Shown: positions 3,326 to 57,956 of the stretch, one piece after another
Position numbering within the stretch: the first letter of the stretch is position 1
How the letters are laid out: every line of letters starts with the position of its first letter
Origin: a virus
Lineage: Duplodnaviria; Caudoviricetes
Strand: one strand, 5' to 3'
Virus record (IMG/VR): IMGVR_UViG_3300027759_000043
Length of the DNA stretch: 64,000 bases
Translations under genes and position numbers: made by a program
Notes under the pieces: model-generated
Database searches by the model: none
Told to the model about the DNA's origin: nothing
Seen by the model: the letters and a program-made list of their open reading frames with translations, nothing else

Positions 3326-4027
3326 ATGGTAAATCAGTTGCAACTTAATCCATATAACGAAGAAATATGTAGAGAAGTTGTTGAATTTTTTAAAGAGAAA
3401 ATCAAAAACAAATACGGAAAGTTTACAGTAAATGATTTCCGTAAATTTTATAAGTCCGACGATAATGCGCATTCTTGCGAGACTCCCAGGTACTCAGTGG
3501 TATTCGGACTTATTCCGTGTTCATCTTTTTATTATCTAAATAAATTATTAGAAATAGAACCATTGGAAATTGCAGACATCGGGTGTGGTATGAATTTTTT
3601 TAAAGATATAGTTCCCGGAATCACAGGTTTCGATGGACATGGAAAATGGCGTGATGTCAATGACGTATTTGATGATGACTTTATTACCGGACATACAGAT
3701 TTTTTCCAGTGTGCATTTTCTATCGATGCGCTACATTTTGTTCCAATAACAAATTTTTATAAACGAGTGTTAGATTTTGCAAATATTATAAAACCCAGAG
3801 GCAGAGGATATCTTGCGATGAATATGGCTCGGATGGTTGAACAGACAGATAAAAAAATTTTAAAAGAGTTGTTTAATACCGAAGACCCCAATAACAATCA
3901 ACTTTCGGACTATATAAATCAAAAAATTAAAATGTTACCTTTAAATTTTTTAGTTATTGATAATTTAATTACAGAAATATACGATGAACCTATAGATGGA
4001 AATATTAGATTAGTATTTGAAAAATAA
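3326..4027 (+). CDS. Class I SAM-dependent methyltransferase-like protein (AT-rich)
   Basis: IADIGCG motif I, ITGFD, FSIDALHF. Confidence 0.6.
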   Translation: MVNQLQLNPYNEEICREVVEFFKEKIKNKYGKFTVNDFRKFYKSDDNAHSCETPRYSVVFGLIPCSSFYYLNKLLEIEPLEIADIGCGMNFFKDIVPGITGFDGHGKWRDVNDVFDDDFITGHTDFFQCAFSIDALHFVPITNFYKRVLDFANIIKPRGRGYLAMNMARMVEQTDKKILKELFNTEDPNNNQLSDYINQKIKMLPLNFLVIDNLITEIYDEPIDGNIRLVFEK

Positions 4028-4105
4028 ATATTCAGCGGTCTCGGACATCATTCCCGCTTTACAAACTCTGCTGTCTATGCTATAATTTAACATAGGAGAA
4101 ACAGC
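4025..4105 (+). promoter_or_regulatory. queD leader: TAAATA promoter, preQ1-I-like aptamer candidate, SD-sequestering hairpin and nested sigma70 promoter
   Basis: P1 AGCGG/CCGCT; hairpin GCTGTCTATG(4070-79)/CATAG..ACAGC(4091-4105); TTTACA(4058)-17-TATAAT(4081). Confidence 0.5.
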
Positions 4106-23297: not shown

Positions 23298-23322
23298 TTT
23301 AACAACTTACTCAAACTTCAAA

Positions 23323-23358
23323 GGACCCTGGATTAAAAACCCAGGGTTTTTTGTTTTT
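23323..23358 (+). terminator. Intrinsic terminator (possible attenuator)
   Basis: ACCCTGG/CCAGGGT stem followed by long T tract. Confidence 0.85.
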
Positions 23359-23369
23359 AGGAGAAAAAT

Positions 23370-23417
23370 ATGAGCACAGAAGAATATTGGCGATGGATTC
23401 ACGATAACGTACAATAG
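23370..23417 (+). CDS. 15-aa micro-ORF MSTEEYWRWIHDNVQ
   Basis: Strong SD AGGAG with correct spacing, directly after terminator. Confidence 0.35.
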   Translation: MSTEEYWRWIHDNVQ

Positions 23418-23455
23418 AGCGTTATCGAAGTGTAGTAGAAATACAACACATGGTG

Positions 23456-23484
23456 TTGACTAATAAATGAAAGACTGCTACAAT
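23456..23484 (+). promoter_or_regulatory. sigma70 promoter of tRNA/ncRNA array
   Basis: TTGACT(23456)-17-TACAAT(23479). Confidence 0.75.
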
Positions 23485-23568
23485 AGAACTTAACAAAGCA
23501 ACAAAGTAGATCGATACTGGTTGCAACAGATCTTTAAAAATCTCATTCATGTAGTCCTGCATTGCAGG

Positions 23569-23789
23569 CACTATATGAGAACACATTAGGGTTACCAGAC
23601 CCGTTAGAGGCATTGGTAGAAGTGAATCGACACCGGCGGGTGTCCGCTTGCTATCAGTCATGAGGCCGGCTCTCACCGTGAGGTGATCCAGAAAAGCGGC
23701 GGATCGTCTGGCAGTAATGACCGTGGTGACTTGGCCTCGCAAGCCAAGCAGAACGAGATCCACAACGGTTCCCAAATGTTTTTTCATAT
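23569..23789 (+). ncRNA. Structured ncRNA candidate Z (~220 nt, long closing stem)
   Basis: ATATGAGAACACATTAGGG pairs with CCCAAATGTTTTTTCATAT; internal hairpins GACACC/GGTGTC, GATCC/GGATC, CTTGGC/GCCAAG. Confidence 0.65.
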
Positions 23790-23865
23790 GGTGGGTTCAT
23801 CTAGAGGCCTAGGATAGTGCCCTTTCACGGCATTCACACCGGTTCGAATCCGGTACCCACTACCA
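23790..23865 (+). tRNA. tRNA-Glu(TTC)
   Basis: GGTGGGT/ACCCACT acceptor, GTGCC-CTTTCAC-GGCAT, GGTTCGAATCC, encoded CCA. Confidence 0.95.
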
Positions 23866-23945
23866 TATAGAAACATATTGCCGAGGAGCGACGTCTTTAC
23901 CATGGGCTCCGACCATAACGAGAGGTAGTGTGTTTCTATATGGTA
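23861..23945 (+). ncRNA. Structured ncRNA candidate A (19-bp closing stem)
   Basis: TACCATATAGAAACATATT/AGTGTGTTTCTATATGGTA with G-U pairs; inner GGAGC/GCTCC hairpin. Confidence 0.65.
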
Positions 23946-24068
23946 ACCATATAGAAGTATTCTTGGCATAAGTCAAAGCAGGAGAAGAAGCCTAGTATCT
24001 GCAGATGCGAAAGTTTCAGTGGTGCAAATCCCCTCCTAGGCCTGCCGTCGAGAGTGCTTCTATATGGT
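23946..24068 (+). ncRNA. Structured ncRNA candidate B (19-bp closing stem, tRNA-like T-arm)
   Basis: ACCATATAGAAGTATTCTT/GAGAGTGCTTCTATATGGT; GCAGG/CCTGC; GCCTAG/CTAGGC; GGTGCAAATCC loop. Confidence 0.7.
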
Positions 24069-24070
24069 AG

Positions 24071-24225
24071 ATGTTATAGTCAAGCATCGATAAGGTATCG
24101 TGTATGGACGCATACACTATTCGGGTCACAGCGGCCGGCGACTGATCCTAATATAACTGCATTCGGCTTTTGCACTCTTAGCGGAGGACGCATAAATTGG
24201 CATTCTCGGTGCTTGACTATAATAT
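24071..24225 (+). ncRNA. Structured ncRNA candidate C (20-bp closing stem, multibranch)
   Basis: ATGTTATAGTCAAGCATCGA/TCGGTGCTTGACTATAATAT; inner GTGTATG/CATACAC, GGGTCA/TGATCC, TGCA/TGCA. Confidence 0.65.
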
Positions 24226-24227
24226 TT

Positions 24228-24302
24228 GGTCCGATAGTATATCGGTTAGTATTTCGCACTGTCACTGCGAGGAGACGGGTTCGATTCCCGTTCGGACCGC
24301 CA
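24228..24302 (+). tRNA. tRNA-Asp(GTC)
   Basis: GGTCCGA/TCGGACC, TCGCA-CTGTCAC-TGCGA, CCA. Confidence 0.95.
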
Positions 24303-24309
24303 AGTTTTT

Positions 24310-24374
24310 GAGAGCCGCATCGCCCTGATACTTCCCTCGGTAACGAGACACTAGGTCTTGCAACAGCGGCTCTC
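24310..24374 (+). ncRNA. Small structured element D (9-bp closing stem)
   Basis: GAGAGCCGC/GCGGCTCTC; CTCG-GTAA-CGAG GNRA hairpin. Confidence 0.5.
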
Positions 24375-24392
24375 CCCTTTAAGGAGTTGACT

Positions 24393-24629
24393 GTGACTGA
24401 TACATTAAACAACTTGTCAGCAGGCATTACTGCTACTATTGACGACATAGTAGGCAATCACAGTTACACTGATAGATTAAAGAGCATGGGGTTCCGATCA
24501 GGACAAAGTATTCAAGTTCTTAGACGAACTCCGCATTGTATGCATGTGCGAGTGGGTTTCAGTGAGTGGGCCATACGCAACCAAGATGCAAAGTTAGTAA
24601 AAATTATTCCCCGAGAGCAATCTAGGTGA
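24393..24629 (+). CDS. feoA: Stand-alone FeoA (SH3-like) domain protein
   Basis: RLKSMGFRSGQSIQVLRR..HVRVG..AIRNQDA; SD AAGGAG then GTG 24393; stop lies inside tRNA-Asn. Confidence 0.75.
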   Translation: MTDTLNNLSAGITATIDDIVGNHSYTDRLKSMGFRSGQSIQVLRRTPHCMHVRVGFSEWAIRNQDAKLVKIIPREQSR

Positions 24630-24683
24630 AGGCGGCGGACTGTTAATCCGTGAAGCCTGGTTCGAATCCAGGTCGGGGAGCCA
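24608..24683 (+). tRNA. tRNA-Asn(GTT)
   Basis: TCCCCGA/TCGGGGA, GCGGA-CTGTTAA-TCCGT, G73, CCA. Confidence 0.93.
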
Positions 24684-24703
24684 ACCTCTTAATAAGTATC
24701 GTT

Positions 24704-30907: not shown

Positions 30908-30997
30908 GGAGACGTGGCCGAGTGGCCTATGGCACCGGATTACTAACCCGGCGAGGTAGCAATACCTCCGTGAGTTCGAATCTCACCGTCTCCGCCA
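30908..30997 (+). tRNA. tRNA-Ser body with ACT anticodon
   Basis: GGAGACG/CGTCTCC, G73, long arm GAGGTA-GCAA-TACCTC, perfect T arm; loop TTACTAA; A31-C39 mismatch. Confidence 0.85.
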
Positions 30998-31843: not shown

Positions 31844-32032
31844 ATGAGCCGGACATTGATCTGGGTTTTATCGTTTAGTGTGCTAGGGCCAGTGCCTGAA
31901 CACGGCGAACAAGCCAAGTTCAAAACTCAAGCCGAATGCGAGCAGGCCCGGGATCAAAAACGCGAAGAATTCCGATCCCAAAACAAACGGATCGTGGCGT
32001 CTTGTCATCTCAGCACAAAGGTTGACAAATAA
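31844..32032 (+). CDS. Small hypothetical (possibly secreted) protein
   Basis: Hydrophobic N-terminus, two Cys; TAAGTA upstream. Confidence 0.55.
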   Translation: MSRTLIWVLSFSVLGPVPEHGEQAKFKTQAECEQARDQKREEFRSQNKRIVASCHLSTKVDK

Positions 32033-32050
32033 TCAAAATAAATATATACT
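32022..32050 (+). promoter_or_regulatory. sigma70 promoter of tmRNA
   Basis: TTGACA(32022)-17-TATACT(32045). Confidence 0.8.
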
Positions 32051-32056
32051 GCTAGT

Positions 32057-32339
32057 TATTGCTGTATGAAGCAGATAAAAATGGATTCAAGACTCGGGGG
32101 CAGTGCCCGAATGGTCCACCAGAAGCATAATCGATTGGCTCATAGCCAGTTGAGACATAAGAAACATGATTGTGCTTCTGGTGGGCCATACACAGGATCG
32201 ATTGGGTCAGAAGTATTGAAGTGGACAGCACATCAGAGTAGATGTTAAAACTAAAAAAAAGTAAACGCAAACGACTCACAGTTCGCATTGGCCGCGTAAA
32301 GTAGCCTAGGGTAGGAAATACCTCGTAACAGAAACCACC
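32057..32339 (+). ncRNA. ssrA: Two-piece (circularly permuted) tmRNA, tag ANDSQFALAA
   Basis: Acceptor piece ends TCGGG-GGCAGTG-CCCGA-ATGGTCC-A-CCA (32121); 17-bp intervening hairpin; coding piece starts GGGCCAT (32183) giving G3-U70; tag ORF 32267-32299. Confidence 0.9.
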
Positions 32340-32367
32340 AAGCCCGCTTCGGCGGGCTTTTTCTTTT
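32340..32367 (+). terminator. Intrinsic terminator
   Basis: AAGCCCGC-TTCG-GCGGGCTT followed by T tract. Confidence 0.9.
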
Positions 32368-46992: not shown

Positions 46993-48160
46993 TCATAGAG
47001 ATCCTGCGACAGGTAGGCCCATGCCCAATGGTATTCCATTGAGCCAACATCATTTGATCGAACTCATGGATGGTTATAGACTAGACTATCCTAGAATCAT
47101 ATATTACCTGCATCAGTGTCAGATTCCTATGAAAATAGTTTCAACAGTTGATGCACCTGCAGGTGCTTGGTACCCTGTTGTACTTGGATGGTTTGATTTT
47201 TCAGCAGACTATCTTGCCATGATTGATACTGCCGCATACAAGTATATCAAACAAAAACAAATGAAGTTGATATTTACGTATCATGAAGGTGATAATCCTG
47301 CTTGTATACGAGAACGTATCAATCATTTGTGTGCTGACCATGCAATAGATCCTGAACAGGTATGGTTGATAAGTGGTAACACATCGGCTGATCTTGTGCC
47401 CGGTTGTGTGTACTGGCCTGAGTTAGAATTTATGTATTGGCGCACCGTGGATCGATCAGCAGGTGCCCGGTATCATCTGCGCCCAAGAAGTCGAGCGTTT
47501 ACTGGCCTATGTAGAATAGACAAACTGTGGCGCAAAGTATTCATGAGCGAACTATGGGCCGATGATTTACATAAAAATGGATATTTTAGTTACAATCAAC
47601 ATCTATTAGGCGGTGAGGATGACTATTTTGGTTGTGCGTTGAACAACAGTTATTTGTCTAACAAACAATCGCAAGTTGACCAATTTATCGCCGCAGGACC
47701 ATTTCGTGTGGACCAACTAAACACAGACTCTCATAACAACTATGCGGCCAATATGACCAACCTCTATGAGGACAGTTATTTCAATATTGTGTTGGAAACC
47801 ATGATTGATGTGGACGATTCAGGTGGGGAGTTTCTGACAGAAAAAACATTCAAGCCTATATTCAACAATCAATTTTTTATCACGGTTAGCGGCGCCAATC
47901 ATATGGCACATCTACGTGAACTAGGGTATCAATCTTTTGGTCTTGTGATAGATGAACACTATGACACAATAGAAAACAATCAAGAGCGATTTGAAGCGGT
48001 GCTGGCGCTTACTAAAGATTTGTGTGCTAGACCATTGACAGAGTTGCACTCGATCTATCAGCAGTTACAACCGGAAATCACACACAACCATCAAGTATTT
48101 GTAGCAGGTATGGGTCACCGACTACAAGCAGTGGTTGATCGCATCAACTGCAAACCTTAA
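46973..48160 (+). CDS. GT10-like glycosyltransferase family protein
   Basis: VLETM..LTEKTFKPI..LGYQSF..IDEHYD. Confidence 0.6.
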   Translation: MIYLAIDHRDPATGRPMPNGIPLSQHHLIELMDGYRLDYPRIIYYLHQCQIPMKIVSTVDAPAGAWYPVVLGWFDFSADYLAMIDTAAYKYIKQKQMKLIFTYHEGDNPACIRERINHLCADHAIDPEQVWLISGNTSADLVPGCVYWPELEFMYWRTVDRSAGARYHLRPRSRAFTGLCRIDKLWRKVFMSELWADDLHKNGYFSYNQHLLGGEDDYFGCALNNSYLSNKQSQVDQFIAAGPFRVDQLNTDSHNNYAANMTNLYEDSYFNIVLETMIDVDDSGGEFLTEKTFKPIFNNQFFITVSGANHMAHLRELGYQSFGLVIDEHYDTIENNQERFEAVLALTKDLCARPLTELHSIYQQLQPEITHNHQVFVAGMGHRLQAVVDRINCKP

Positions 48161-49622
48161 CACTATACAACTGCTCAAAACGATCTGCATCTGCACGATC
48201 ATTCACCATGGGTTCGCCACGTATGTTAAGACTGGTGTTCAACAACATAGGGCATCCTGTTAACACGTACCATTTCTCTAGTAGTTCTCTTATGCCCGAA
48301 CCGTCCCGCGCCACAGTCTGTACTCGGCTGGTACCATCAACATGACATATAGCAGGAGTAAGGTCAGGCTGGCGACACCTAGCGACTGACTGCATATAAG
48401 GACTATGATGCCAACCCACTGGCATATCAAAATAGTCATGAACCACCTCAGCCAATATAACCGGGGCAAAAGGCCTAAACTGTTGTCTACGTTTGATTTC
48501 ATTCACTTTCTCCTTGATCTCGCTGCCTCTAGGGTCTGCAAGGAGGCTACGGTTTCCCAGTGCGCGGGGGCCGAACTCGGCTCTTCCTGATGCCACTCCG
48601 ACAATTTTGTCACTAACAAGCCGATCCAACAACTGGTTAACAGGATAAACACCTGGAATGCAATGGCCGAGATAACTGTCCCGCCAGTTAATTCTACTCC
48701 CAAGAGCCAAAGCGGCAGCACCGAGACTGCTACCAGCATCACCGGGGCAAGGCATAATCCAGATTTTGTCAAAGTAATCTCCTAACATGCGGTTGGCTGT
48801 GCAATTTAGTGCCACCCCACCCATATATACCAGATTTGAACTAAAACCTGTGTTTCTGGCACGAATCATTACTTGTCGAATAAGATCCTCTGCTACCAGT
48901 TGCCCAGAGGCCGCAATGTTTTCATTGCTGGCGCCCTTTAAGAAATCCTCACTCATTCCTGTGTGAAAGTTTTGCTTTAGTTCAATATCACGATCGTTTG
49001 CAATCACATGTGAACGCATGTCATGATACCACGTGTTACGACCCCAGGCAGCCATGCCCATAGTGATGTATTCTTCGTCTAGTGGGTGTAGGCCAATACG
49101 CTGGGTGACTGCACTGTAAAATAACCCAATGCTGTGTGGATAAACCTGTCTCCACAATCTCTTGTACCGGGCCTGGCCTTTTGAATCATATTCTGCACCC
49201 CATATACTAATAGTATCCCATTCACCAATTGCATCTATTACCACTACTGTGGCACGTTCAAAAGGTGACGTTTGAAAACCCCCTGCCGCATGCGATAAAT
49301 GATGATTATAACTATGCACCTTTGTGGGTTCAATTTGTCTACCCAGTTGTTTCTTTAATATCTGCTGGGTGGTGAGTTTGTCCCATTCAATACCTTGACC
49401 TGCGTACCATTGTCGTGCTTGTTTTGCCCAAGGGCGTTCATAGTAAGCAACCACTTCAGGACCATATGCAAGAACTTCGTCTAGCAGACCTTGACAAAAG
49501 TCTGCATCATTTTTCTTTTTGCTATAACGCTCTGAATGGCCGGCAAACAATATCTCCCCGTCAAGGCTTATGACTGTTGCAGCCGCATCATGAAAGCCAG
49601 CAGAGATGCCCAGGATGTTCAT
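48144..49622 (-). CDS. Carbamoyltransferase (NodU/CmcH/TobZ family)
   Basis: GISAGFHDAA, HHLSHA, DAIGE, GGVALNC, GPRALGNRS, RPFAP, LNTSLN. Confidence 0.92.
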   Translation of the reverse strand: MNILGISAGFHDAAATVISLDGEILFAGHSERYSKKKNDADFCQGLLDEVLAYGPEVVAYYERPWAKQARQWYAGQGIEWDKLTTQQILKKQLGRQIEPTKVHSYNHHLSHAAGGFQTSPFERATVVVIDAIGEWDTISIWGAEYDSKGQARYKRLWRQVYPHSIGLFYSAVTQRIGLHPLDEEYITMGMAAWGRNTWYHDMRSHVIANDRDIELKQNFHTGMSEDFLKGASNENIAASGQLVAEDLIRQVMIRARNTGFSSNLVYMGGVALNCTANRMLGDYFDKIWIMPCPGDAGSSLGAAALALGSRINWRDSYLGHCIPGVYPVNQLLDRLVSDKIVGVASGRAEFGPRALGNRSLLADPRGSEIKEKVNEIKRRQQFRPFAPVILAEVVHDYFDMPVGWHHSPYMQSVARCRQPDLTPAICHVDGTSRVQTVARDGSGIRELLEKWYVLTGCPMLLNTSLNIRGEPMVNDRADADRFEQLYSVKVCS

Positions 49623-49720
49623 TTGTAGATAAATGGATCTCGCTTGCGTAGTTCTTTTAATTTTTTACGATAACGAATTTCTAATGTAATTCTTGCCCAA
49701 AGTCTTTTAAACCAATTCAT
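49619..49720 (-). CDS. 33-aa basic peptide MNWFKRLWARITLEIRYRKKLKELRKRDPFIYK
   Basis: Exactly fills the gap with ATGA overlaps on both sides. Confidence 0.7.
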   Translation of the reverse strand: MNWFKRLWARITLEIRYRKKLKELRKRDPFIYK

Positions 49721-50754
49721 TTTATATTCCTAATTTGTTGTTCTGCGTAGTCTGGATCACTCCAGTGATACTCATATGTAGCCTGTGCTGTACTGGTACG
49801 TATTTTATACACGTTTTGATGTTGACTCAATTGCGAGTATATGTTGTCCCAGTCTTCTGTACCAAACGACCTCGAGAGATCAACTTGCCCGATGCAAGGG
49901 TGGCCGATTGTAAGACTTGCATCATCTGGGTCAAATCCATTCCGTTCAAGCCATAGTCGAAATTCTGCCAACTGCTTGATTTGCCAAGGGAATGAGCCGG
50001 GATCACGGGCCCATTCAATATCAAAGTCACCAGCCGCTTGAGTCTGGACACGTAGTCCTGTAGTAACCAATTCTGAAATTCTCGAATCTCTACCTTCATC
50101 TTGAAATACCTCCCAGTGATGCTTGCCCACTGCTTTATTTACACCCACATACACACCGCCCAATTTTCTGTTGATTGTGTCTATACCAAACAATTCTAAA
50201 TCTTCAGCATCTAATTCATAGCGCGGAGCGTTTAACCAACACATGAGTTGTGATGGTCTGCGCCATTCAGGTGCAGTTCGGGCTTTGCGTATGCTAAGTA
50301 CCAGGCTTTCAAACTCATGACATAGCAAATTTAACTGGCGTATGTGCCAACGTGTGTAGTCATCGGCTGAATCATAATAGGAACTCATGGCTCCGGCTGT
50401 TCCTTGTAAGTCTTCAAAGTAACGATGCAGTTGATTCATGTGTGCATGATCCACCCCTCCATTGTCAGCAACGGTGTTGGCCGGGGAGAAGAAGTCTTGT
50501 ATGGTATAGCCTAGGTTGGCTGAGTTGATGGCGTGTATACTGCGATTGATTTGAGTACACAGGTATTCAGGATTGCGAGCACTTTCAGCCCAACCCAACC
50601 AGCAGTAATTCTTTTCCAAATGTAGATTATTTTGAATAATATTATTCAACGCCGCAAGCCATTTACGGCTGAGACTGTTGTCCTCGACATCTATGTGTAC
50701 CGTTAAAATTTCATTGTTATGACCGCGCAGGTCCATTTCGATATGATCAAGCAA
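49717..50754 (-). CDS. Hypothetical protein in radical SAM cluster
   Basis: 345-aa ORF; NQLHRYFE and LNLLCHEFE His-containing helices. Confidence 0.65.
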   Translation of the reverse strand: MLDHIEMDLRGHNNEILTVHIDVEDNSLSRKWLAALNNIIQNNLHLEKNYCWLGWAESARNPEYLCTQINRSIHAINSANLGYTIQDFFSPANTVADNGGVDHAHMNQLHRYFEDLQGTAGAMSSYYDSADDYTRWHIRQLNLLCHEFESLVLSIRKARTAPEWRRPSQLMCWLNAPRYELDAEDLELFGIDTINRKLGGVYVGVNKAVGKHHWEVFQDEGRDSRISELVTTGLRVQTQAAGDFDIEWARDPGSFPWQIKQLAEFRLWLERNGFDPDDASLTIGHPCIGQVDLSRSFGTEDWDNIYSQLSQHQNVYKIRTSTAQATYEYHWSDPDYAEQQIRNIK

Positions 50755-52036
50755 TTTTCATCCACCATTCTAGTACTTCTGGTCGCGAGCCCAGGATATC
50801 TGTCATTGTTACTGACTGTGTTCTTATCTGTTCTAATTGTAAAACACGAACCTTGCCCTTGACAAGAGCCGCTTGGTATTGATCCGGCCACTGTTCTGCA
50901 AATGTGGGCCGGGTCTTTAATTGTAACAGTACATCACGCATGGCACCTGCGGAGCGGCCTGCTAGTTCGTCAACCCATGGATCCAGCACGGCTCTAGGCA
51001 ATGCTAGTGGACTCATAATGATATCTGGCGAGAAACTAAAGATAACTTTGGCCAGTAGTTCTACTCCAAACTGTCGCGCCAATTGTTGTATCGCATCAAC
51101 TTCGAGCATTCCGGGCAACGTGAGTGTAAAATCAATGCGCATTTGTCTGGGGGTTGTTGCGTAACGTAGTCCGTGTTCAAAATTACGCTTGAACTGTTCA
51201 TAATCCAATCCTGTACGAATATATTCCCCAATCTCGTTAGTTCCATCCAATGAAGCACATATTTGCCAGTCCCGGACATGGCTGAGAATATCGCCAAAAA
51301 GATCCATGCCGCGATAATTAATTCTGCTAAGGTTTGTATTATATCTAGCATACAGTCGAGGTCCATCTCCTAATTCAATTATTCGTCGCATGTAACGCCA
51401 ATGCTGTTCATACATTAGGGGTTCACCGCCAACCCAGTATATTTCTTCTACTGCATGTCGTTCCACGGCGGCAGCAAATTCGGCTTCAACCTGATTCTCC
51501 TGAAAGTGTGCGATCTGTCCACGTATATCTGTTCGCATCCAATTGTTCTTTGGATTTGATAAGTCAACCATGTTGTTCTGTTTTTGTTCACTTTCCCAGG
51601 CCGAGGATAGCATGTCGCCACAGGTTCTGCATTTGAAGTTACACAAGTTGCTGAACCTATAATCCCACGACACAGGAGCCATAGTTGTAGAACCATCCTC
51701 ACTAGTGGATGCAAATATCTCGGGTAATTTATGCTGAAATAAATGGTCGAAGTATGTTCGATATACATTGGTGTTTAAAAGTCGATCGTTGCAGACTTCG
51801 CATTCGGGCAGGGTTTCTCCAGCCATCATTCTGCGGCGCACTGACTTCATATGCTCTGAATTCCAGTGACCCTCTAGTGTAATGGGAATATACTTTCCTG
51901 TGCCCGAACTCGTATCTATATACTGCTCAAAGTTCTGCGCTGGTTCTCTTGACGCACAACACATCCTGCGTTCGGTCTGCGGTGAAAGATATGTATGCAC
52001 CCAGGGCGCAAGACACATGGTATCAGGTTTCTGCAT
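50747..52036 (-). CDS. Radical SAM protein with N-terminal twitch/SPASM-like domain
   Basis: CLAPW..MCC; CNFKCRTC; GGEPL. Confidence 0.85.
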   Translation of the reverse strand: MQKPDTMCLAPWVHTYLSPQTERRMCCASREPAQNFEQYIDTSSGTGKYIPITLEGHWNSEHMKSVRRRMMAGETLPECEVCNDRLLNTNVYRTYFDHLFQHKLPEIFASTSEDGSTTMAPVSWDYRFSNLCNFKCRTCGDMLSSAWESEQKQNNMVDLSNPKNNWMRTDIRGQIAHFQENQVEAEFAAAVERHAVEEIYWVGGEPLMYEQHWRYMRRIIELGDGPRLYARYNTNLSRINYRGMDLFGDILSHVRDWQICASLDGTNEIGEYIRTGLDYEQFKRNFEHGLRYATTPRQMRIDFTLTLPGMLEVDAIQQLARQFGVELLAKVIFSFSPDIIMSPLALPRAVLDPWVDELAGRSAGAMRDVLLQLKTRPTFAEQWPDQYQAALVKGKVRVLQLEQIRTQSVTMTDILGSRPEVLEWWMKIA

Positions 52037-52955
52037 ATGATATCAAAGGTTCAACAATTTCTTTAAATATACGTTGTTCTACTAATTCTTTATTAAAAAA
52101 TAAATTATGATTGTGTTTGAGTTTGCCAATGGTAATAGAATCATATGGAATTTTATAAAAGTTATCTATGTTTGCTATAACAGTATTTAATCTTGCATCA
52201 AAATCTTCTATGTTGTCATATGATTCGTCAAATATATTATCATATGTTTCAAATCCCAATTCTTTTAATCTTTTTAATGTATGATGTTGTCCAATAATTA
52301 AAAATGGATGATAATAAGCGCATGCCTTGAATGTTTTGTCAGTGGGCCACCAGCAGTCCCCAATTTGGCTAGTTTCCACTACGGTGCTAAAATAAGTGTC
52401 ATCGTACCACTCAGAGTTGAAAAATCGTTGATAATTTGGATCTATTGTTGTTGTATCATTGGGTAGTTTTTTGTCTTGATAACTCCATATGAAATTTTCA
52501 AGCCTGGCCCCTAGTAAATCAATTATTGCTTTTCGTTCTTTGCTTGGTCGTCTGACCGACATAAATGATAGTTTTTTATATGTTTTCTTAGGTACATAAT
52601 TATGATATCCTAAATGTTGCCACCATAAACTTTCGTTATACCAACACCAATTTTTATTATTCAATTCATAATAGTTGTTGCTGTATTCCGATCTGGGGAG
52701 TTCCCAAAGATTGTCAATTATCACAATGTGACCTGAATTTTTTAACTGGCGACTATATTTGTCATCAGCGTTCATCCACCAGACTGCAAAAAGGGTTGAT
52801 TTGTCATATGTTTTTTCACTATCAAACCATTCAATATCAAAATATTCTTGCCAAAAACTTTCTAGATAGAAACTAGTAAAACTAGTGAATTCGTCTGGTC
52901 TCAAAATTAACTTGACTTTAGACATAGTTAAGTAATTTTGCCAGTTCAGGGGCAA
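52023..52955 (-). CDS. GT10-like glycosyltransferase family protein (AT-rich)
   Basis: VVETS..TDKTFKA..PF..GFETY..FDESYD. Confidence 0.55.
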   Translation of the reverse strand: MPLNWQNYLTMSKVKLILRPDEFTSFTSFYLESFWQEYFDIEWFDSEKTYDKSTLFAVWWMNADDKYSRQLKNSGHIVIIDNLWELPRSEYSNNYYELNNKNWCWYNESLWWQHLGYHNYVPKKTYKKLSFMSVRRPSKERKAIIDLLGARLENFIWSYQDKKLPNDTTTIDPNYQRFFNSEWYDDTYFSTVVETSQIGDCWWPTDKTFKACAYYHPFLIIGQHHTLKRLKELGFETYDNIFDESYDNIEDFDARLNTVIANIDNFYKIPYDSITIGKLKHNHNLFFNKELVEQRIFKEIVEPLISYAET

Positions 52956-54123
52956 CAGTGGCTAAATTTTGTTCACGGCGGCTGTCTAATTTTTGTATTT
53001 GCTTTCGAATTTCAACACCATCAGTTGATTGGCCACGTATCATGAAATCAATGATGCCCGCAAAGTCTTCCTTGTACTTAGACGGACTTAATGCAGTATT
53101 TAAATGATTAGCGACGGCTTGTTTTGCAGAATCAGGCAATGCGCCAATGGAAAAATACGGTGCATCATGCATGATATTCCAGTATACAAAATCAAAGCCT
53201 TGTACACTGATCCAGTGTGCCAGTTGGTCGATATAACGAACATTGAATATATTCACGGTGGAACAACATTGCAGTTGAATATTAGAATGCTGCCGACGTA
53301 TTTGACGGAACAGTTCAAGATTTCTTTGAACATCAACCCATTTAGCACCAGTGCGCTGATATTCAAATCGTTCACACAAGTCATCGATACTAAATGCAAT
53401 CTCCACTGTTTTAAAATGCTTCCAAATTTCAATAGCATCCGCTGGATACTGAGTGCCATTGGTATTGTAGTGTATTTCGACTTGGTGTGCTATGCCACGG
53501 TCCACTATGCCTTGTAACATAGTAAAATGTTCTTCAATCATAAAGGGCTCGCCGCCTGTAAATTCAATGTAACGAATGTCGTTAAGTACTGAATCAATCT
53601 GTGTCCAAAATTGATCATTTTCTCTGGGCCAACGTCCGGCCTTTAACATTTGATAAGCAAAACTTGTCTTGCTGTGCGCTTCTATTGAAGTTGCGATTTC
53701 TTCTACAGCAAAACTACTGCTAGACCAAGACCCGCATATACGGCATTTGAGATTGCAGATGTTGCCCAATTTAAGGTCAAGGAACATGAGTGGCTTGGCG
53801 TCCCGAGTCCATTCCGTACTAATGCCCATGTGCTTGAGTCTGTCTAGTGTGTGCATACGTTTACTAGTACGCCCAGCGTCTTCCTCATTCCAACACTTGC
53901 GGCAAGTGGCGGGTTGTTTTCCTGCTAAGAATGCTTGTCGCAATTGGTACATGTATTCGCTATTTTGAATATCTCGAAAATTAGCAGACTTCAAGTTAAA
54001 CTTGACACTATTACTGTCTACAATTTCATCATCGGCCAAGCAACAGGGACGCACTGTACCTATAGGGCTGGCTTCTAGGCTTACCCAGGGCAATACACAA
54101 AATTTATCGTGTGGTAAATTCAT
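52918..54123 (-). CDS. Radical SAM protein with N-terminal twitch/SPASM-like domain
   Basis: CVLPW..PCC; CNLKCRIC; TGGEP. Confidence 0.85.
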   Translation of the reverse strand: MNLPHDKFCVLPWVSLEASPIGTVRPCCLADDEIVDSNSVKFNLKSANFRDIQNSEYMYQLRQAFLAGKQPATCRKCWNEEDAGRTSKRMHTLDRLKHMGISTEWTRDAKPLMFLDLKLGNICNLKCRICGSWSSSSFAVEEIATSIEAHSKTSFAYQMLKAGRWPRENDQFWTQIDSVLNDIRYIEFTGGEPFMIEEHFTMLQGIVDRGIAHQVEIHYNTNGTQYPADAIEIWKHFKTVEIAFSIDDLCERFEYQRTGAKWVDVQRNLELFRQIRRQHSNIQLQCCSTVNIFNVRYIDQLAHWISVQGFDFVYWNIMHDAPYFSIGALPDSAKQAVANHLNTALSPSKYKEDFAGIIDFMIRGQSTDGVEIRKQIQKLDSRREQNLATVAPELAKLLNYV

Positions 54124-55382
54124 TTCAAAACCTTGAGTTCAGGAAGCACGTCCAAGACGTTTTCATTTCTAATGTCATCCAGTTCGTGCGTTTTACGCCA
54201 GAATGTGTCGATCAACTGTGTATTGTCTGTTGCGTTCATGAATTGAATGGCTGATTGAAATCCTTGCGTGGCACGACCCAATGGATCTCTATCACTCATC
54301 CAGGACAAATGCTTACGGTATTTTTCTTCTAGTCGTTGTTTGTACTCAACCGTAGCAATATCTATTCTATAGTATGCTGGATCTTGCAAAATGTTTACAT
54401 TTAAATCTTGTGGCTGAATTAGTCCAGCGGCACACCATTCTCTGTGAAAGTCTGGCAAATGCCAAGCATTTAATATGCTGAGTGTGGGCGAAATGTAAAA
54501 GTCTACATTGGGACACGTTGCAATCATTCTGTGACGATTCTGCACAACGTCCGACCATCGGGTACCTTTGCGTATGTATTCGGCAGGATGGCCCATGCCG
54601 TCCAATGACGCACCCACTGCCACTGAGTCAAACTGTCGCCAGTATTCAAATACTGAACGGCCTTTTAGATCTATGTGCGTGAAATTTGTATTGTAGATTA
54701 ATCGTACATCAAAGCGTTTTCTCTTTACCAGTTCTTCTAAGATGTTGTAGTGTTCTTCCATCAGCAATGGCTCGCCACCTGCGAAGTAGATTTGTTCTAC
54801 ATAGTCCAAATGCGGTTCTAATTGTGTCCACATGTCTGTTTCTGTGCGCCCTGCATAGTTAAGAACTGCGTTGCGATCTTTCCATTCAGGGCCTGCTAAT
54901 TTCACTTGATCCTGGTACCATTGGCTTGAAAAGATATGCCCACATGAGCGACATTTTAAATTGCAAAGATTGCTGAAACGAATATCCCAATAGGTCATTT
55001 CAAACGGATTAGCATCTAATTTTTTAACATGATGCCCGTGATGTTTATTTGCTGATCGGCGTCCTGAAAAGAATCCCGATTGTTCTTGTTCATAACAACG
55101 TACACAAGCGGCATGTGGCGTTTCACTCAGCATATCAGCACGTAACTGTTGCATAGGCTTGTCCTGCCATATTTCTTCAAGCGTGTTTGTTCTACAGTTG
55201 CCCACTACTCCTGGCTTCATTTCAGCATGACAGCAAGGATATGCTTCACCTGTGGGATATGCATGCAAATGAATCCAAGGATAGATACAGAATGTCTTGG
55301 AGTCTTCTAGCAAGAAACGTTCACGCTCGGTGAGTTCTGTGGCACGTACTAGATCAGTAGAGTTATACTTGTATTGCGTCAT
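54120..55382 (-). CDS. Radical SAM protein with N-terminal twitch/SPASM-like domain
   Basis: CIYPW..PCC; CNLKCRSC; AGGEP. Confidence 0.85.
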   Translation of the reverse strand: MTQYKYNSTDLVRATELTERERFLLEDSKTFCIYPWIHLHAYPTGEAYPCCHAEMKPGVVGNCRTNTLEEIWQDKPMQQLRADMLSETPHAACVRCYEQEQSGFFSGRRSANKHHGHHVKKLDANPFEMTYWDIRFSNLCNLKCRSCGHIFSSQWYQDQVKLAGPEWKDRNAVLNYAGRTETDMWTQLEPHLDYVEQIYFAGGEPLLMEEHYNILEELVKRKRFDVRLIYNTNFTHIDLKGRSVFEYWRQFDSVAVGASLDGMGHPAEYIRKGTRWSDVVQNRHRMIATCPNVDFYISPTLSILNAWHLPDFHREWCAAGLIQPQDLNVNILQDPAYYRIDIATVEYKQRLEEKYRKHLSWMSDRDPLGRATQGFQSAIQFMNATDNTQLIDTFWRKTHELDDIRNENVLDVLPELKVLK

Positions 55383-56700
55383 ACCATTCTTTTAATTCAG
55401 GAAATACAGCACTAAAGTCTTTGCCACGACGTTGATCGTATTGTGTATAGAACTGTTTAAAGTCATTCAATAACCGGGGCCGATCAAATGCTTCTGAGTG
55501 CGGGGTCTTGACCACATCCAAATAATCAATCAAGCGTTGGGTGTGATTGACTTCGTGTTCGTGAATGAACTCACTATCAGCCCAGTGCGCCAACCAGGTC
55601 TCCAAGCGTTGTCTATACACTATGCGCTGGGCATCAGGCAATACCAGCGGCGACTGAAAACTGGGAAAGCGCAAGATATTTAATGTAAACGAAACAGCAT
55701 CTTGACCGTATTCCAGTTTCCAATTCATTATGCACTCTAGTAATTGATCCAAGGTGCTTAAACATAGTGCGTTGACAGTACACATAACATGTATACCACG
55801 GAACTGTCCTGAATCTAGCAAGCGTTCTACGTTGTTAGCCCATTCATCCCACACAAGTCCATCACGTATATATTCTGCCTGAGTTGATATTGACTCATTG
55901 CTGGTGTACAAGTCGATTGCCATTCCGGCTGTGCTGGCAAGCAGTCGGTCAACATCAACTTCGGTTCCCAAGTTACTATTGATAGCCAAACGTGTGTGAC
56001 TCTTGCCCTGATTTGTTTTAAACCAATCAATAAGGCGCCAGGTGTGGGCCGACATGAGGGGCTCTCCTCCGGTGATTCTAAGTTCCTGGAGTGTATGATG
56101 TAGGTCTGATTCCCACCATGCGAAAAATGCATCAATGTAGGGATTACTCTCCGTGATCTTAAACAACTGAGCACTATCATGGGTGTGGGTAAAGTGATTG
56201 CGCCCGTCACTAACAAGATTGTTGTAGGGTCCGTTGCGTCGAATATCACTAACCCAAGTTGTGCTAAAAGCAGGGTTGCAGTAACTGCAAGCAAATTGAC
56301 AAGTACGATCAAAAGCAATTTCCAGTGTACGGAGATTGATCTCTTGCATTGCAGGAGTATTAAATGCGTCATGTAAGGCCTCTATGGGATATATTTTACT
56401 CTTGTACACACGGTCACTAACAGCATCCTTGCCCATGTCCTCAATCTTCCAGCAGTATTCACAACCTTTAGGTCGTTCACCTGCAAGCATTTTACGTCTG
56501 TCTTCTTTCTTTTGATCAGTATTGTGCAACAGCCTAGGGTTGGCCTGGACTTTATCAATGTCCACCAAATGGGCTGGAGGGTGGTGACAACTTGTGGTCA
56601 TACCAGAGCCTAACCAAATAGTGGCATTGTACCATTTGGCCGCACAAAAACTATCAGATAGTTTGTCTAAAACTTCATGTTTGAATTCTAAATCGTTCAC
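55363..56700 (-). CDS. Radical SAM protein (CAAKW subtype)
   Basis: CAAKW..SCHH; CQFACSYC; TGGEP. Confidence 0.85.
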   Translation of the reverse strand: MNDLEFKHEVLDKLSDSFCAAKWYNATIWLGSGMTTSCHHPPAHLVDIDKVQANPRLLHNTDQKKEDRRKMLAGERPKGCEYCWKIEDMGKDAVSDRVYKSKIYPIEALHDAFNTPAMQEINLRTLEIAFDRTCQFACSYCNPAFSTTWVSDIRRNGPYNNLVSDGRNHFTHTHDSAQLFKITESNPYIDAFFAWWESDLHHTLQELRITGGEPLMSAHTWRLIDWFKTNQGKSHTRLAINSNLGTEVDVDRLLASTAGMAIDLYTSNESISTQAEYIRDGLVWDEWANNVERLLDSGQFRGIHVMCTVNALCLSTLDQLLECIMNWKLEYGQDAVSFTLNILRFPSFQSPLVLPDAQRIVYRQRLETWLAHWADSEFIHEHEVNHTQRLIDYLDVVKTPHSEAFDRPRLLNDFKQFYTQYDQRRGKDFSAVFPELKEWYDAIQV

Positions 56701-57956
56701 AAATTATTTTGGATAAAATTAACAAAACGGTCAGGAAATTCGCTAAAGATTCTAGGTCCTTCTGCCGCCAAGTGTTGTTGATTATACTTAGTTACTGCTC
56801 GACTTGCAACCAGAAATTCCGCCAGATTGCTCTCACATAAGTCTTGCACCACTTGGGCTATTCGATCCAATCGATCTTGATTGTTGTCTATTGAGTCAAA
56901 TGATTCATCAATCAGGTGATCAAATGTTTGGAATCCTGCGCGACGCAAGTCGCGATAAAAACCGCAATTGGCCACTGCCACAAAAGGATGACCCATGGCA
57001 ATGGGTTTGTAAATTTTTTCACTACGCAGGCTGTAAGGGTAGTCAAACACAGTTTCTGACACCAAACTGAAATAGGTATCTATGTAGGGTTCAGCACGAA
57101 TATACACGTCGCCCCATTTGTTATCAAACAATTCGTGTTTGACAAATGCATGTTGATATTGGTCTTTTTGTCCTGCATGAAATTGTTCTACTTCATATTC
57201 GGCGGGTAACAGTTGTATCTTGTTGGGTCTCTCAAACAGATCAGTCGAATAGGTGTGATGGTATACTGGGGTAGTGTCCAAGTTGGTCCAAAGTGCATGT
57301 GCCAACAGGCCAGCATCACGCATGAGTTCTATCATGTATTTTCTGTGTGGTCTCGTGCGTCCATTCAAGAAAAGAAACTTATAGGGTTTGTGTAATTTGT
57401 TATAGATTTCACCTACACGAGCACCTTGTTTGGCATTGCTTTCATAACAGGTTGCTCTGTAAGCATAATGATCGTACACCATGCAGTTGAGTTCAGGCTC
57501 CATATCTCCGCACCCAACTAATAATAATTTCTTGTTTCGAATTAGATCTATCAATCCTAGTCGTTGGCATTGTAATTTAAGAGTAATCGATCCTTCTGAT
57601 GGATTGGCCAGTACGGGTAAGCAAATCTCTGCAAGTTGTTTCACACGATCTGCATAACGATTTACAGTTTGTCTGGCCAGCACAACAATGTCATTAGGCT
57701 GGGGTTCGTATTGCTCAAAATCCCAAAATGTATCATCTACGAGATGTTGTATTTCTGTGTGTATCTCGCAGGAAGTATCGCATACAAGTCTGTGGTTACC
57801 TAGCATGATATCTGCACTCGTCCCACCACGACCGCATTTCAGGGAATGTGTTTGAGAAGTCTGTGCCACGTCGACGATCATGTTCCGCAAAGAATCTGTA
57901 AAAGTCTGCACGTGCCTTGGAGTGATCTTGTGCTTGCGCACTGCGCATCCAAGCAA
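56697..57956 (-). CDS. GT10-like glycosyltransferase family protein
   Basis: VSETVF..SEKIYKPI..PF..GFQTF..IDESFD; true start probably near 57806. Confidence 0.55.
   Translation of the reverse strand: MLGCAVRKHKITPRHVQTFTDSLRNMIVDVAQTSQTHSLKCGRGGTSADIMLGNHRLVCDTSCEIHTEIQHLVDDTFWDFEQYEPQPNDIVVLARQTVNRYADRVKQLAEICLPVLANPSEGSITLKLQCQRLGLIDLIRNKKLLLVGCGDMEPELNCMVYDHYAYRATCYESNAKQGARVGEIYNKLHKPYKFLFLNGRTRPHRKYMIELMRDAGLLAHALWTNLDTTPVYHHTYSTDLFERPNKIQLLPAEYEVEQFHAGQKDQYQHAFVKHELFDNKWGDVYIRAEPYIDTYFSLVSETVFDYPYSLRSEKIYKPIAMGHPFVAVANCGFYRDLRRAGFQTFDHLIDESFDSIDNNQDRLDRIAQVVQDLCESNLAEFLVASRAVTKYNQQHLAAEGPRIFSEFPDRFVNFIQNNL

What the first reader, a model, noticed from the sequence alone, without database searches (positions are those of the whole stretch)
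23569..24374. Tandem array of long-stem-closed ncRNA cassettes interdigitated with tRNAs
Seen: five back-to-back elements (Z 23569-23789, A 23861-23945, B 23946-24068, C 24071-24225, D 24310-24374) fill nearly all the space around tRNA-Glu and tRNA-Asp. Z, A, B and C are each closed by a roughly 19-20-bp AT-rich stem, and D by a 9-bp GC-rich stem. Deviations in the long stems are mostly G-U wobbles, which implies RNA-level selection. Each encloses a different GC-richer structured core. Z's stem extends over the first 4 nt of tRNA-Glu and A's stem over its UACCA end, the same CCA-masking geometry as the tmRNA intervening hairpin at 32116-32184. Inference: a standard carrier stem releases a payload of distinct small RNAs via tRNA-processing enzymes or RNase III, and/or gates tRNA maturation. 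I recognise no named family for them; T4 RnaC/RnaD are only a loose positional precedent.
Basis: partly seen in the sequence, partly recalled or inferred. Interest (0 to 1): 0.82.

Follow-up and report, generated by a model that had tools for sequence, protein, structure and literature searches.

The report
Stem-closed RNA cassettes between phage tRNAs
The gaps around two tRNA genes of a large uncultured freshwater phage hold small RNA modules, most closed by one shared long hairpin stem that begins at a tRNA's CCA end; the same stem with swappable cargo recurs in over a hundred related phage contigs and matches no described RNA family, and its function is still unknown.

Summary
Z, A, B and C are each closed by a 20-22 bp AU-rich stem and D by a 9-bp GC stem, and together they fill the space around tRNA-Glu and tRNA-Asp. 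No Rfam family matches any of them.

What is new is that the stem of Z, A and B belongs to a family. An arm-only scan of IMG/VR hit its 120-contig limit. In 119 new loci there were 147 cassettes; 97 start exactly on a tRNA's CCA and 141 lie inside tRNA arrays. Ninety-two unique anchored cassettes carry about 76 unrelated cores. Half of them follow tRNA-Lys(UUU).

Near-identical cassettes sit between unrelated tRNA pairs. The slot after tRNA-Glu holds none, E, B, A+B or E+A+B in close relatives. Similar arms close the intervening hairpin of the permuted tmRNA.

Cores C, D and Z show compensatory changes, and Z and C occur in lake metatranscriptome contigs. However, Z also exists without the long stem, D is a separate module rather than a feoA leader, and the G-U argument fails family-wide.

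Best reading: excisable hairpin cassettes like rRNA intervening sequences, shuffled through their shared arms. The processing enzyme and the role of the cargo are only inferred. First readers of this scan noted the same stem family in other genomes.

The parts
23456..23484 (+). Sigma-70-type promoter of the array (TTGACT, 17 nt, TACAAT, with TG before the -10)
   Evidence: Consensus scan, 10 of 12 matches. The hexamers and the roughly 55-nt leader behind them are conserved in 7 related contigs.
23491..23568 (+). Conserved leader, followed by a small hairpin that is present only in the stem-bearing Z variants
   Evidence: Alignment A9. Stem-less variants lack about 40 nt here.
23569..23793 (+). 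Element Z: 5' arm about 23569-23591, core 23592-23767, 3' arm 23768-23793, overlapping tRNA-Glu by 4 nt
   Evidence: Fold. Thirteen of 71 pairs show double changes in 7 homologs. The core is found without the long stem in L090, L092, L095 and L096. A 165-nt RNA contig covers 23594-23758 with no mismatch, and three RNA runs hold 0.46-0.91 of its words.
23790..23865 (+). tRNA-Glu(UUC) with encoded CCA
   Evidence: ARAGORN and Rfam.
23861..23945 (+). Cassette A: 22-bp family stem that starts on the UACCA end of tRNA-Glu, plus a 41-nt core
   Evidence: Fold. Eight copies occur next to different tRNAs. A is absent from L012. Its arms covary.
23946..24068 (+). Cassette B: 22-bp family stem plus a 79-nt core
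   Evidence: Fold. Homologs are 80-98% identical in L012, L086, L089, L090 and L093. In L012 it abuts the GCCA end of tRNA-Glu directly.
24069..24227 (+). Element C: stem of about 21 bp with a different sequence, ending on the first bases of tRNA-Asp, plus a 109-nt multibranch core
   Evidence: Folds and alignments; 9-10 pairs show double changes. An RNA contig covers 24074-24222. C is present in all relatives that have the backbone.
24228..24302 (+). tRNA-Asp(GUC) with encoded CCA
   Evidence: ARAGORN and Rfam.
24310..24374 (+). Element D: 65-nt irregular hairpin closed by a 9-bp GC-rich stem. It is not a member of the AU-stem family.
   Evidence: Seven of 19 pairs show double changes in 6 homologs. 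It lies before feoA, before tRNA-Glu, before tRNA-Asn or before other sequence, depending on the relative.
32111..32189 (+). Intervening hairpin of the permuted tmRNA. It starts on the ACCA end of the acceptor piece, and its arms resemble those of B.
   Evidence: Rfam tmRNA_permuted match, inverted repeat I2, sequence and fold.

Best explanation
The array is one promoter-driven stable-RNA transcription unit of an uncultured freshwater jumbo phage. In it, the tRNAs are separated by self-contained RNA modules. Z, A and B carry a shared 17-22 bp AU-rich closing stem. Its 5' arm is close to CCAUAUAAAAACACAUU and begins with the CCA of the RNA upstream. Its 3' arm is close to AGUGUGUUUCUAUAUGG and ends just before, or on, the first G of the next tRNA. 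C is the same kind of module with a different stem sequence. D is a separate conserved hairpin. I read the long stem as an excision handle, comparable to the terminal stems of 23S rRNA intervening sequences and of this phage's own tmRNA intervening segment. On this reading a host double-strand endonuclease, most likely RNase III, cuts the stem. That frees the neighbouring CCA 3' end and tRNA 5' end for final trimming by exonucleases and RNase P, and it releases the core as a small RNA. The nearly identical arms also provide portable homology, so cores are swapped, gained and lost by recombination between arms. Some cores (A, B, C, Z) are conserved small RNAs of unknown role. Shown here: the anatomy, the family, the CCA anchoring, arm covariation, modular exchange, core covariation for C, D and Z, and presence of Z and C in RNA libraries. 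Inferred only: the cutting enzyme, the order of cuts, and any function of the cargo.
For: Stems and their statistics.

Family and anchoring: in the first 86 loci there were 21 non-redundant cassettes, 12 starting on a tRNA's CCA. The arm-only scan reached its 120-contig limit. It gave 147 cassettes, 97 starting on a tRNA CCA and 141 inside tRNA arrays.

Arms pair better within a cassette than between cassettes: 19.0 against 17.3 of 22 positions, with 0 of 5000 permutations as good. In the larger set, positions 1-17 gave 16.09 against 15.75 and positions 18-22 gave 2.50 against 1.92, each with 0 of 2000 permutations as good.

Long stems are enriched between tRNAs: 10 of 83 inter-tRNA gaps hold a stem of at least 18 bp, against 9 of 1660 control intervals.

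Modularity: A is missing in L012. The slot after tRNA-Glu holds none, E, B, A+B or E+A+B, and an RNA contig joins tRNA-Glu directly to C. L093 carries the A core inside E-type arms. Cassettes 98-100% identical sit between unrelated tRNA pairs, and the homology ends at CCA and at TGG. Core orientation is always the same, 16 pairs to 0.

The tmRNA intervening hairpins have similar arms and variable cargo.

Promoter and conserved leader.

RNA evidence: Z, C and the tRNAs are covered, but neither flanking coding region is. The Z core is held by RNA runs from three studies.

Core covariation.

Precedent: rRNA intervening sequences have terminal inverted repeats forming a 28-bp stem, are cut out by RNase III, and are sporadically distributed (PMC4990558).
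Against: No RNA ends were mapped. The RNA evidence is from assembled contigs, which cannot show termini and which break at repeats, so excision is not shown.

Three complete relatives encode no RNase III, so a host enzyme has to be assumed.

The arm sequence is conserved far more strictly than E. coli-type RNase III is known to need (own knowledge). That points either to a sequence-specific partner or to homogenisation by recombination.

The stem pairs equally well on either strand: A.C at position 8 and U.G at position 16. Selection at the DNA level is therefore not excluded.

Z works without the stem in four contigs.

Cores in the wider family fold no better than random genomic segments (z -0.60 against -0.41, p = 0.34).
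Confidence: 0.5

Rival explanations
1. The cassettes are selfish palindromic DNA elements, like miniature inverted-repeat transposable elements. They colonise tRNA junctions because insertions there are harmless, since they are trimmed off with the spacer. The stem is a terminal inverted repeat recognised as DNA, and the cargo has no RNA function.
For: The inverted repeat is constant while the interiors are unrelated: about 76 clusters among 92 cassettes. Near-identical copies lie between unrelated flanks with sharp boundaries. Presence and absence vary among close relatives. The stem is equally good on both strands. Most cores are not unusually stable.
Against: No target-site duplication is seen at any compared junction or empty site. 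Orientation is always the same, 16 pairs to 0. Ninety-six percent of cassettes are confined to tRNA arrays. No Y1 transposase was found in five relatives. Cores C, D and Z show compensatory changes, and the A core is more conserved than its arms, 95% against 86%. Exchange through the shared arms explains the sharp boundaries without transposition.
Confidence: 0.15
2. The cargo is the point. The cassettes are a fast-changing library of small functional RNAs, such as decoys, inhibitors or regulators. They are displayed on a constant stem that serves as a common protein-binding handle, as in Y RNAs, and they ride on the tRNA transcript.
For: Arm sequence is strictly conserved, including fixed A.C and U.G positions. 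Cores at one orthologous slot are extremely diverse: 41 clusters among 46 cassettes after tRNA-Lys. Loop and single-stranded sequence in A is invariant. The Z core is well represented in contigs of RNA libraries.
Against: No Ro60/TROVE, RtcB or other candidate partner was found in complete relatives. There is no match to YrlA or any other Rfam family. No complementary target for A's conserved loops was found in the window. The smallest cassette is a bare hairpin with a 13-nt loop. Most cores are not detectably structured.
Confidence: 0.15
3. The stem is a maturation gate. By pairing the CCA end of one tRNA with the leader and first bases of the next, it delays RNase P cleavage and 3' trimming, so that particular phage tRNAs, above all tRNA-Lys, become active only after a specific cut.
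For: The CCA is paired in 97 of 147 cassettes, and the 3' arm ends at position -1 or 0 relative to the start of the next tRNA in about 40 of 138 unique cassettes. The tmRNA has the same geometry. There is a strong bias towards tRNA-Lys(UUU): 46 of 92 cassettes, though it makes up only 71 of 1593 tRNAs.
Against: Nothing suggests a regulated cut. Many cassettes have no tRNA downstream. Z carries the arms without any tRNA upstream. The bias towards Lys may simply reflect common descent of one slot.
Confidence: 0.1

Closest known systems
Intervening sequences of 23S rRNA (Salmonella, Coxiella and others), excised by RNase III
   Same: Terminal inverted repeats form a stem of 20-28 bp around a variable interior. 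The element sits inside a stable-RNA transcript. Distribution among relatives is sporadic. They are regarded as selfish or transferred elements (PMC4990558).
   Different: Here the elements lie between tRNAs, or between the two pieces of a tmRNA, not inside rRNA helices. They start on an encoded CCA. They share one conserved arm sequence across roughly 76 different interiors. They are 43-275 nt long and have no ORF. Excision by RNase III has not been tested.
Intervening segment of permuted (two-piece) tmRNA genes
   Same: It is a hairpin that begins on the ACCA end of the acceptor piece and ends before the 5' G of the next piece. In this phage its arms resemble B's arms, and in L086 it carries cargo of about 95 nt.
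   Different: A tmRNA intervening segment extends the acceptor stem of a single RNA. The cassettes join two independent tRNAs, or stand in tandem.
Phage T4 small stable RNAs RnaC (species 1) and RnaD (species 2)
   Same: They are small non-coding RNAs placed back to back directly after the last tRNA of a phage tRNA cluster. Their function is also unknown.
   Different: RnaC folds as a tRNA-like RNA with a T arm, and RnaD is not unusually stable (z -0.8). Neither has a 20-bp AU closing stem. There is no sequence similarity beyond the T arm.
Theta (minimal HDV-like) ribozymes next to phage tRNAs
   Same: They are RNA elements that abut the 3' ends of phage tRNAs and are proposed to mature them (PMC10879173).
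   Different: Theta ribozymes are self-cleaving double pseudoknots. The cassettes are long simple hairpins with arbitrary loops, and no Rfam ribozyme family matches at E up to 10.
Miniature inverted-repeat transposable elements, and T4-type promoter-stem-loop shuffling cassettes (PeSL; Arbiol et al. 2010, own knowledge)
   Same: A constant repeat frames unrelated interiors, and content is exchanged in modules between related genomes.
   Different: There is no target-site duplication, orientation is fixed, and the elements are confined to tRNA arrays. The units carry RNA rather than ORFs.
Bacterial Y RNAs (YrlA/YrlB)
   Same: The 5' and 3' ends pair into a long stem, the distal module is variable, and the genes are often tandem.
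   Different: There is no Rfam match, and no Ro60/TROVE gene in three complete relatives.

Membership tests
rRNA-type intervening sequence / RNase III processing stem | Terminal inverted repeats form a stem of about 20 bp or more around a dispensable interior | tested here: met
   Stems of 20-22 bp in A, B, C and Z. Family median is 18 bp plus cassette-specific pairs. Interiors are unrelated.
rRNA-type intervening sequence / RNase III processing stem | Lies within a stable-RNA transcription unit, between mature RNA ends | tested here: met
   Promoter and absence of terminators in the array. Cassettes abut tRNA ends. Co-transcription itself is inferred.
rRNA-type intervening sequence / RNase III processing stem | Sporadic presence or absence among close relatives | tested here: met
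rRNA-type intervening sequence / RNase III processing stem | Cut out of the precursor by RNase III | not testable with these tools
   Only assembled RNA contigs were available. No phage RNase III was found.
Miniature inverted-repeat transposable element | Target-site duplication flanking the terminal repeats | tested here: not met
   No duplication at five pairs of identical cassettes, nor at filled versus empty slots.
Miniature inverted-repeat transposable element | Inserted in either orientation and dispersed over the genome | tested here: not met
   Orientation 16 to 0. 141 of 147 cassettes lie inside tRNA arrays. No other copies in the 64-kb window.
Miniature inverted-repeat transposable element | A cognate transposase that recognises the repeats | tested here: inconclusive
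   Only the Y1 (IS200/IS605) family was searched, and it is absent from 5 relatives.
Y RNA (YrlA/YrlB) | Match to the family model, and a Ro60/Rsr partner gene | tested here: not met
   No Rfam match at E up to 10. TROVE is absent from 3 complete relatives. A host copy cannot be excluded.
T4 RnaC/RnaD | Sequence or fold homology to species 1 or species 2 RNA | tested here: not met
   Folds differ. BLAST finds only the tRNA-like T arm. The positional analogy does hold.
HDV-like / theta or other self-cleaving ribozyme | Match to a ribozyme covariance model | tested here: not met
   No ribozyme family appears among matches at E up to 10 over 23300-24700 or over L021 8200-9000.
feoA riboswitch or leader (element D) | Constant linkage to the regulated gene | tested here: not met
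   D precedes tRNA-Glu in L021, tRNA-Asn in L094 and other sequence in L086. It precedes feoA only in the window, L012 and L089.

The most novel reading that the evidence does not exclude
The cassettes are a hypervariable library of small RNAs, shuffled by recombination and displayed on one constant stem. They are tethered mainly to the phage's own tRNA-Lys(UUU), tRNA-Gln(UUG) and tRNA-Glu(UUC). tRNA-Lys is the species that the anticodon nuclease PrrC (own knowledge) and PARIS (PMC11464382) are known to attack. tRNA-Gln(UUG) and tRNA-Glu(UUC) share its modified wobble uridine, and related toxins cut such tRNAs in other organisms (own knowledge). On this reading the cargo takes part in an arms race, for example as decoys or inhibitors of host tRNA-targeting defence enzymes, delivered in equal amounts with the rescue tRNA.
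Probability: 0.1. Interest if true: 0.9.

Novelty: new variant of a known kind. Interest (0 to 1): 0.72.

Why it matters
Phage tRNA arrays are usually annotated as tRNAs separated by meaningless spacers. Here the spacers form an organised system. One conserved stem is anchored on CCA ends. It is reused for tRNAs and for the tmRNA, and it carries dozens of unrelated cores that are exchanged between phages. The family has no Rfam model and was not found in the cultured phages searched (INPHARED collection), yet it occurs in more than 120 IMG/VR viral contigs. It would give a concrete substrate for asking how polycistronic tRNA precursors with encoded CCA are matured in phage-infected cells. It would also show how small RNA genes spread between phages. 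The roughly 175-nt Z RNA, which has its own promoter and appears in contigs of several lake metatranscriptomes, is a new candidate functional RNA. The strong link to tRNA-Lys(UUU) suggests a testable connection to defence systems that target tRNAs.

Tried and rejected
**Rfam.** Gathering thresholds on the window and on 12 related loci, and E up to 10 on the array and on L021 8200-9000, gave only tRNAs and tmRNA.

**Cultured phages.** A blastn search of the array found only tRNA matches. The smallest cassette gave only chance hits.

**Bacterial genomes.** A Z-core pattern scan gave 10 hits, and all were chance matches with no further similarity.

**Candidate partner proteins.** RNase III, TROVE/Ro60, RtcB, CCA-adding enzyme and Y1 transposase were sought in complete relatives. 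None was found.

**Z as a small RNase P RNA.** Distant Z-like copies contain a short motif that recalls RNase P. It is not conserved in the window's Z, and no model matched. Rejected.

**Protein-coding readings.** The minus-strand ORF 23422-23787 over Z is unlikely to be a gene, because Z homologs differ by insertions of 3-4 nt there. A possible 8-codon ORF inside A was noted only by eye in the sequence and could not be tested.

**Targets for A.** Sequences complementary to A's invariant loops occur in the window no more often than expected by chance.

**C-like cassettes.** Those in L021, L084 and L085 proved unrelated to C.

**Strict gap-closure test.** A test for gaps closed from end to end was too stringent and uninformative. 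It was replaced by the stem-in-gap test.

**Contig ends.** The ends of RNA contigs at the inner borders of Z cannot be read as RNA termini, because assemblies break at repeated arms. Parts of the array with no RNA-contig cover are not evidence of absence.

**Literature.** Searches found no prior description of these elements.

Full report
**What the window is.** The 64-kb window resembles part of a large uncultured freshwater phage. It has 11 tRNA genes and a permuted tmRNA, phage-type exonuclease and ATPase genes, and many auxiliary genes. The metallophosphoesterase gene just upstream of the array has 82-94% identical relatives on 80 IMG/VR contigs. Three of these are complete genomes of 347-365 kb. 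No genome is held for the window itself.

**Checking the observation.** All five elements fold as described. A, B, C and Z close with 20-22 bp AU-rich stems and D with 9 GC-rich pairs, at z-scores of -3.5 to -6.9. Their arms are among the longest inverted repeats in the window. Z's 3' arm overlaps the first four bases of tRNA-Glu, and A's 5' arm includes that tRNA's UACCA end. In a 910-nt model precursor the stems of A, B and C form with probability of at least 0.98, whereas those of Z and D compete with alternative pairings. A strong sigma-70-type promoter lies about 85 nt upstream of Z. The promoter and the leader behind it are conserved in seven relatives. No Rfam family matches any element, even at E = 10.

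**The stem is a family.** The 5' arms of Z, A and B resemble each other. The same arms recur in related contigs next to other tRNAs. The 5' arm is near CCAUAUAAAAACACAUU and the 3' arm near AGUGUGUUUCUAUAUGG.
- In the first 86 loci I found 21 non-redundant cassettes spanning 63-225 nt. Twelve had the arm's CCA coinciding with the upstream tRNA's CCA. Eight had a 3' arm ending at position -1 or 0 relative to the start of the next tRNA.
- An arm-only scan of IMG/VR stopped at its 120-contig limit. In 119 new loci it gave 147 cassettes; 97 start on a tRNA CCA and 141 lie inside tRNA arrays.
- Stems of at least 18 bp occur in 10 of 83 inter-tRNA gaps, against 9 of 1660 control intervals.
- Neither the array nor the smallest cassette found these arms in the INPHARED collection of cultured phages.

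**Is pairing selected, and on which strand?** Arms pair better with their own partner than with the arms of other cassettes, both in the conserved part and in the cassette-specific inner part. No permutation out of 5000 or 2000 did as well. When positions vary, they vary by double changes or through wobble intermediates. However, the typical stem has an A.C at position 8 (62 of 92) and a U.G at position 16 (65 of 92). The opposite strand would therefore carry the mirror pair of imperfections.

**The cargo is modular and hypervariable.**
- Ninety-two unique anchored cassettes fall into about 76 unrelated core clusters.
- The A core occurs on eight contigs: usually after tRNA-Lys, here after tRNA-Glu, and in L086 after another cassette, E.
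- Relatives share the backbone Z, tRNA-Glu, a variable slot, C, tRNA-Asp, D. The slot holds nothing, E, B, A+B or E+A+B. One metatranscriptome contig joins the end of tRNA-Glu straight to C.
- In L093 the A core sits inside E-type arms.
- Five pairs of cassettes that are 92-99% identical (three of them at 98% or more) lie between different tRNA pairs, and the homology ends at CCA and at TGG.
- There is no target-site duplication, and homologous cores always have the same orientation, 16 pairs to 0.

Exchange through the nearly identical arms explains all of this without transposition.

**Are the cores real RNAs?** For this window, largely yes.
- C has 9-10 pairs with compensatory double changes. 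D has 7 of 19. Z has 13 of 71, including whole hairpins replaced by different hairpins.
- More distant Z-like RNAs of 230-250 nt keep the same helices with changed sequences.
- A's core is 95% identical across copies whose arms are 86% identical. This comparison is biased, because some copies were found through a core pattern.
- Between the window and L012, fourfold-degenerate sites are 44% identical in the phosphoesterase gene and 85% in feoA. The Z core is 86% identical, the B core 95%, the C core 71% and the arms 93-96%.
- Four freshwater metatranscriptome runs have contigs over Z, C and the tRNAs, but none over the flanking coding sequence or feoA. Three RNA runs from three studies hold 0.46-0.91 of the Z core's sampled words.

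These are assembled contigs. They show presence in RNA libraries, not RNA ends or abundance. Across the wider family, cores are no more stable than random genomic segments, so many may be mere loops.

**Corrections to the picture.** Z's long stem is optional. In four contigs the same promoter, leader and Z core occur without the arms and without the small hairpin that precedes them. D has a different stem. It precedes feoA in only three contigs, and elsewhere it precedes tRNA-Glu, tRNA-Asn or other sequence. D is therefore an independent inter-tRNA module, and feoA is a later insertion. C has its own stem sequence and is a fixed part of the backbone.

**The tmRNA link.** The intervening hairpin of the permuted tmRNA starts on the ACCA of the acceptor piece and ends before the 5' G of the next piece. 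Its arms resemble B's arms. In L086 the corresponding hairpin has similar arms and about 95 nt of cargo. That segment must be removed to free the CCA end for charging (established for two-piece tmRNAs; own knowledge). This is the best clue that the shared stem marks RNA to be cut out.

**Mechanism.** I favour an excision handle like that of an rRNA intervening sequence. A two-turn duplex would be cut by a host RNase III-type enzyme, after which RNase P and 3' exonucleases finish the neighbouring ends and the core is released. The precedent is documented for 23S rRNA intervening sequences (PMC4990558). The complete relatives encode no RNase III, CCA-adding enzyme, RtcB or Ro60, and 97% of the tRNAs encode CCA. 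Host enzymes must therefore act, and they must spare the CCA. None of this has been shown. The strict conservation of arm sequence could instead reflect a sequence-specific partner or homogenisation by recombination.

**Comparison with known systems.** T4 RnaC and RnaD share only the position after a tRNA. Their folds and sequences differ. Theta ribozymes share the position at tRNA 3' ends and the proposed role, but not the architecture (PMC10879173). Tests for membership among transposable inverted-repeat elements and Y RNAs fail on defining features.

**An unexplained bias.** Half of the anchored cassettes follow tRNA-Lys(UUU), which makes up 4.5% of the tRNAs in those loci, and they carry 41 different cores among 46 cassettes. 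tRNA-Gln(UUG), tRNA-Glu(UUC) and tRNA-Leu(UAG) come next. tRNA-Lys is the target of PARIS and is rescued by a phage tRNA (PMC11464382). Shared descent of one slot may explain the bias. It is nonetheless the basis of the most novel reading that the evidence does not exclude.

**Verdict.** First readers of this scan had noted the same stem family in other genomes, and I verified it independently here.

Noticed in passing
window 32009-32362, hairpin 32111-32189; L086 about 3990-4100: The permuted tmRNA's intervening hairpin has arms like cassette B. In a relative it carries about 95 nt of cargo, so the cassette design extends to the tmRNA.
   Followed up: partly
119 IMG/VR loci (L107 onward): tRNA-Lys(UUU) precedes 46 of 92 anchored cassettes although it makes up 71 of 1593 tRNAs. 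Those 46 cassettes carry 41 unrelated cores.
   Followed up: partly
window 23491-23568: A leader of about 55 nt behind the promoter is nearly invariant in seven contigs. Stem-bearing Z variants add a small hairpin (CCUGCAUUGCAGG) whose flank can pair with Z's 5' arm instead of the 3' arm in the model precursor.
   Followed up: partly
window 24387-24629: feoA is absent from this position in L094, where D is followed directly by tRNA-Asn. In the window its stop codon lies inside tRNA-Asn. It appears to be a gene inserted into the tRNA operon.
   Followed up: partly
window 30908-30997; L089 7080-7169: ARAGORN calls a tRNA-Ser with the unusual anticodon ACU, and it is conserved in a relative.
   Followed up: no
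L086 6760-6990: A GC-rich stretch without an obvious ORF follows D in this relative. It may be a further structured RNA. No Rfam family matches at gathering threshold.
   Followed up: no
L021 8546-8689; L084 7419-7558: Another cassette type has a perfect 17-21 bp stem (AUGUUGUUAGUUCUGCC and its complement) and a conserved core. It follows the Z-like RNA in more distant relatives and is unrelated to C.
   Followed up: partly
L135, L148, L219 cassette cores: Some cassette cores contain a canonical T-arm motif (GGUUCGAAUCC) followed by an acceptor-like strand, that is, tRNA fragments or tRNA mimics as cargo.
   Followed up: no
window 48144-59169, minus strand: A run of radical-SAM / B12-binding-type genes lies beside a carbamoyltransferase and sugar-modifying genes. 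It looks like a large auxiliary biosynthetic cluster.
   Followed up: no
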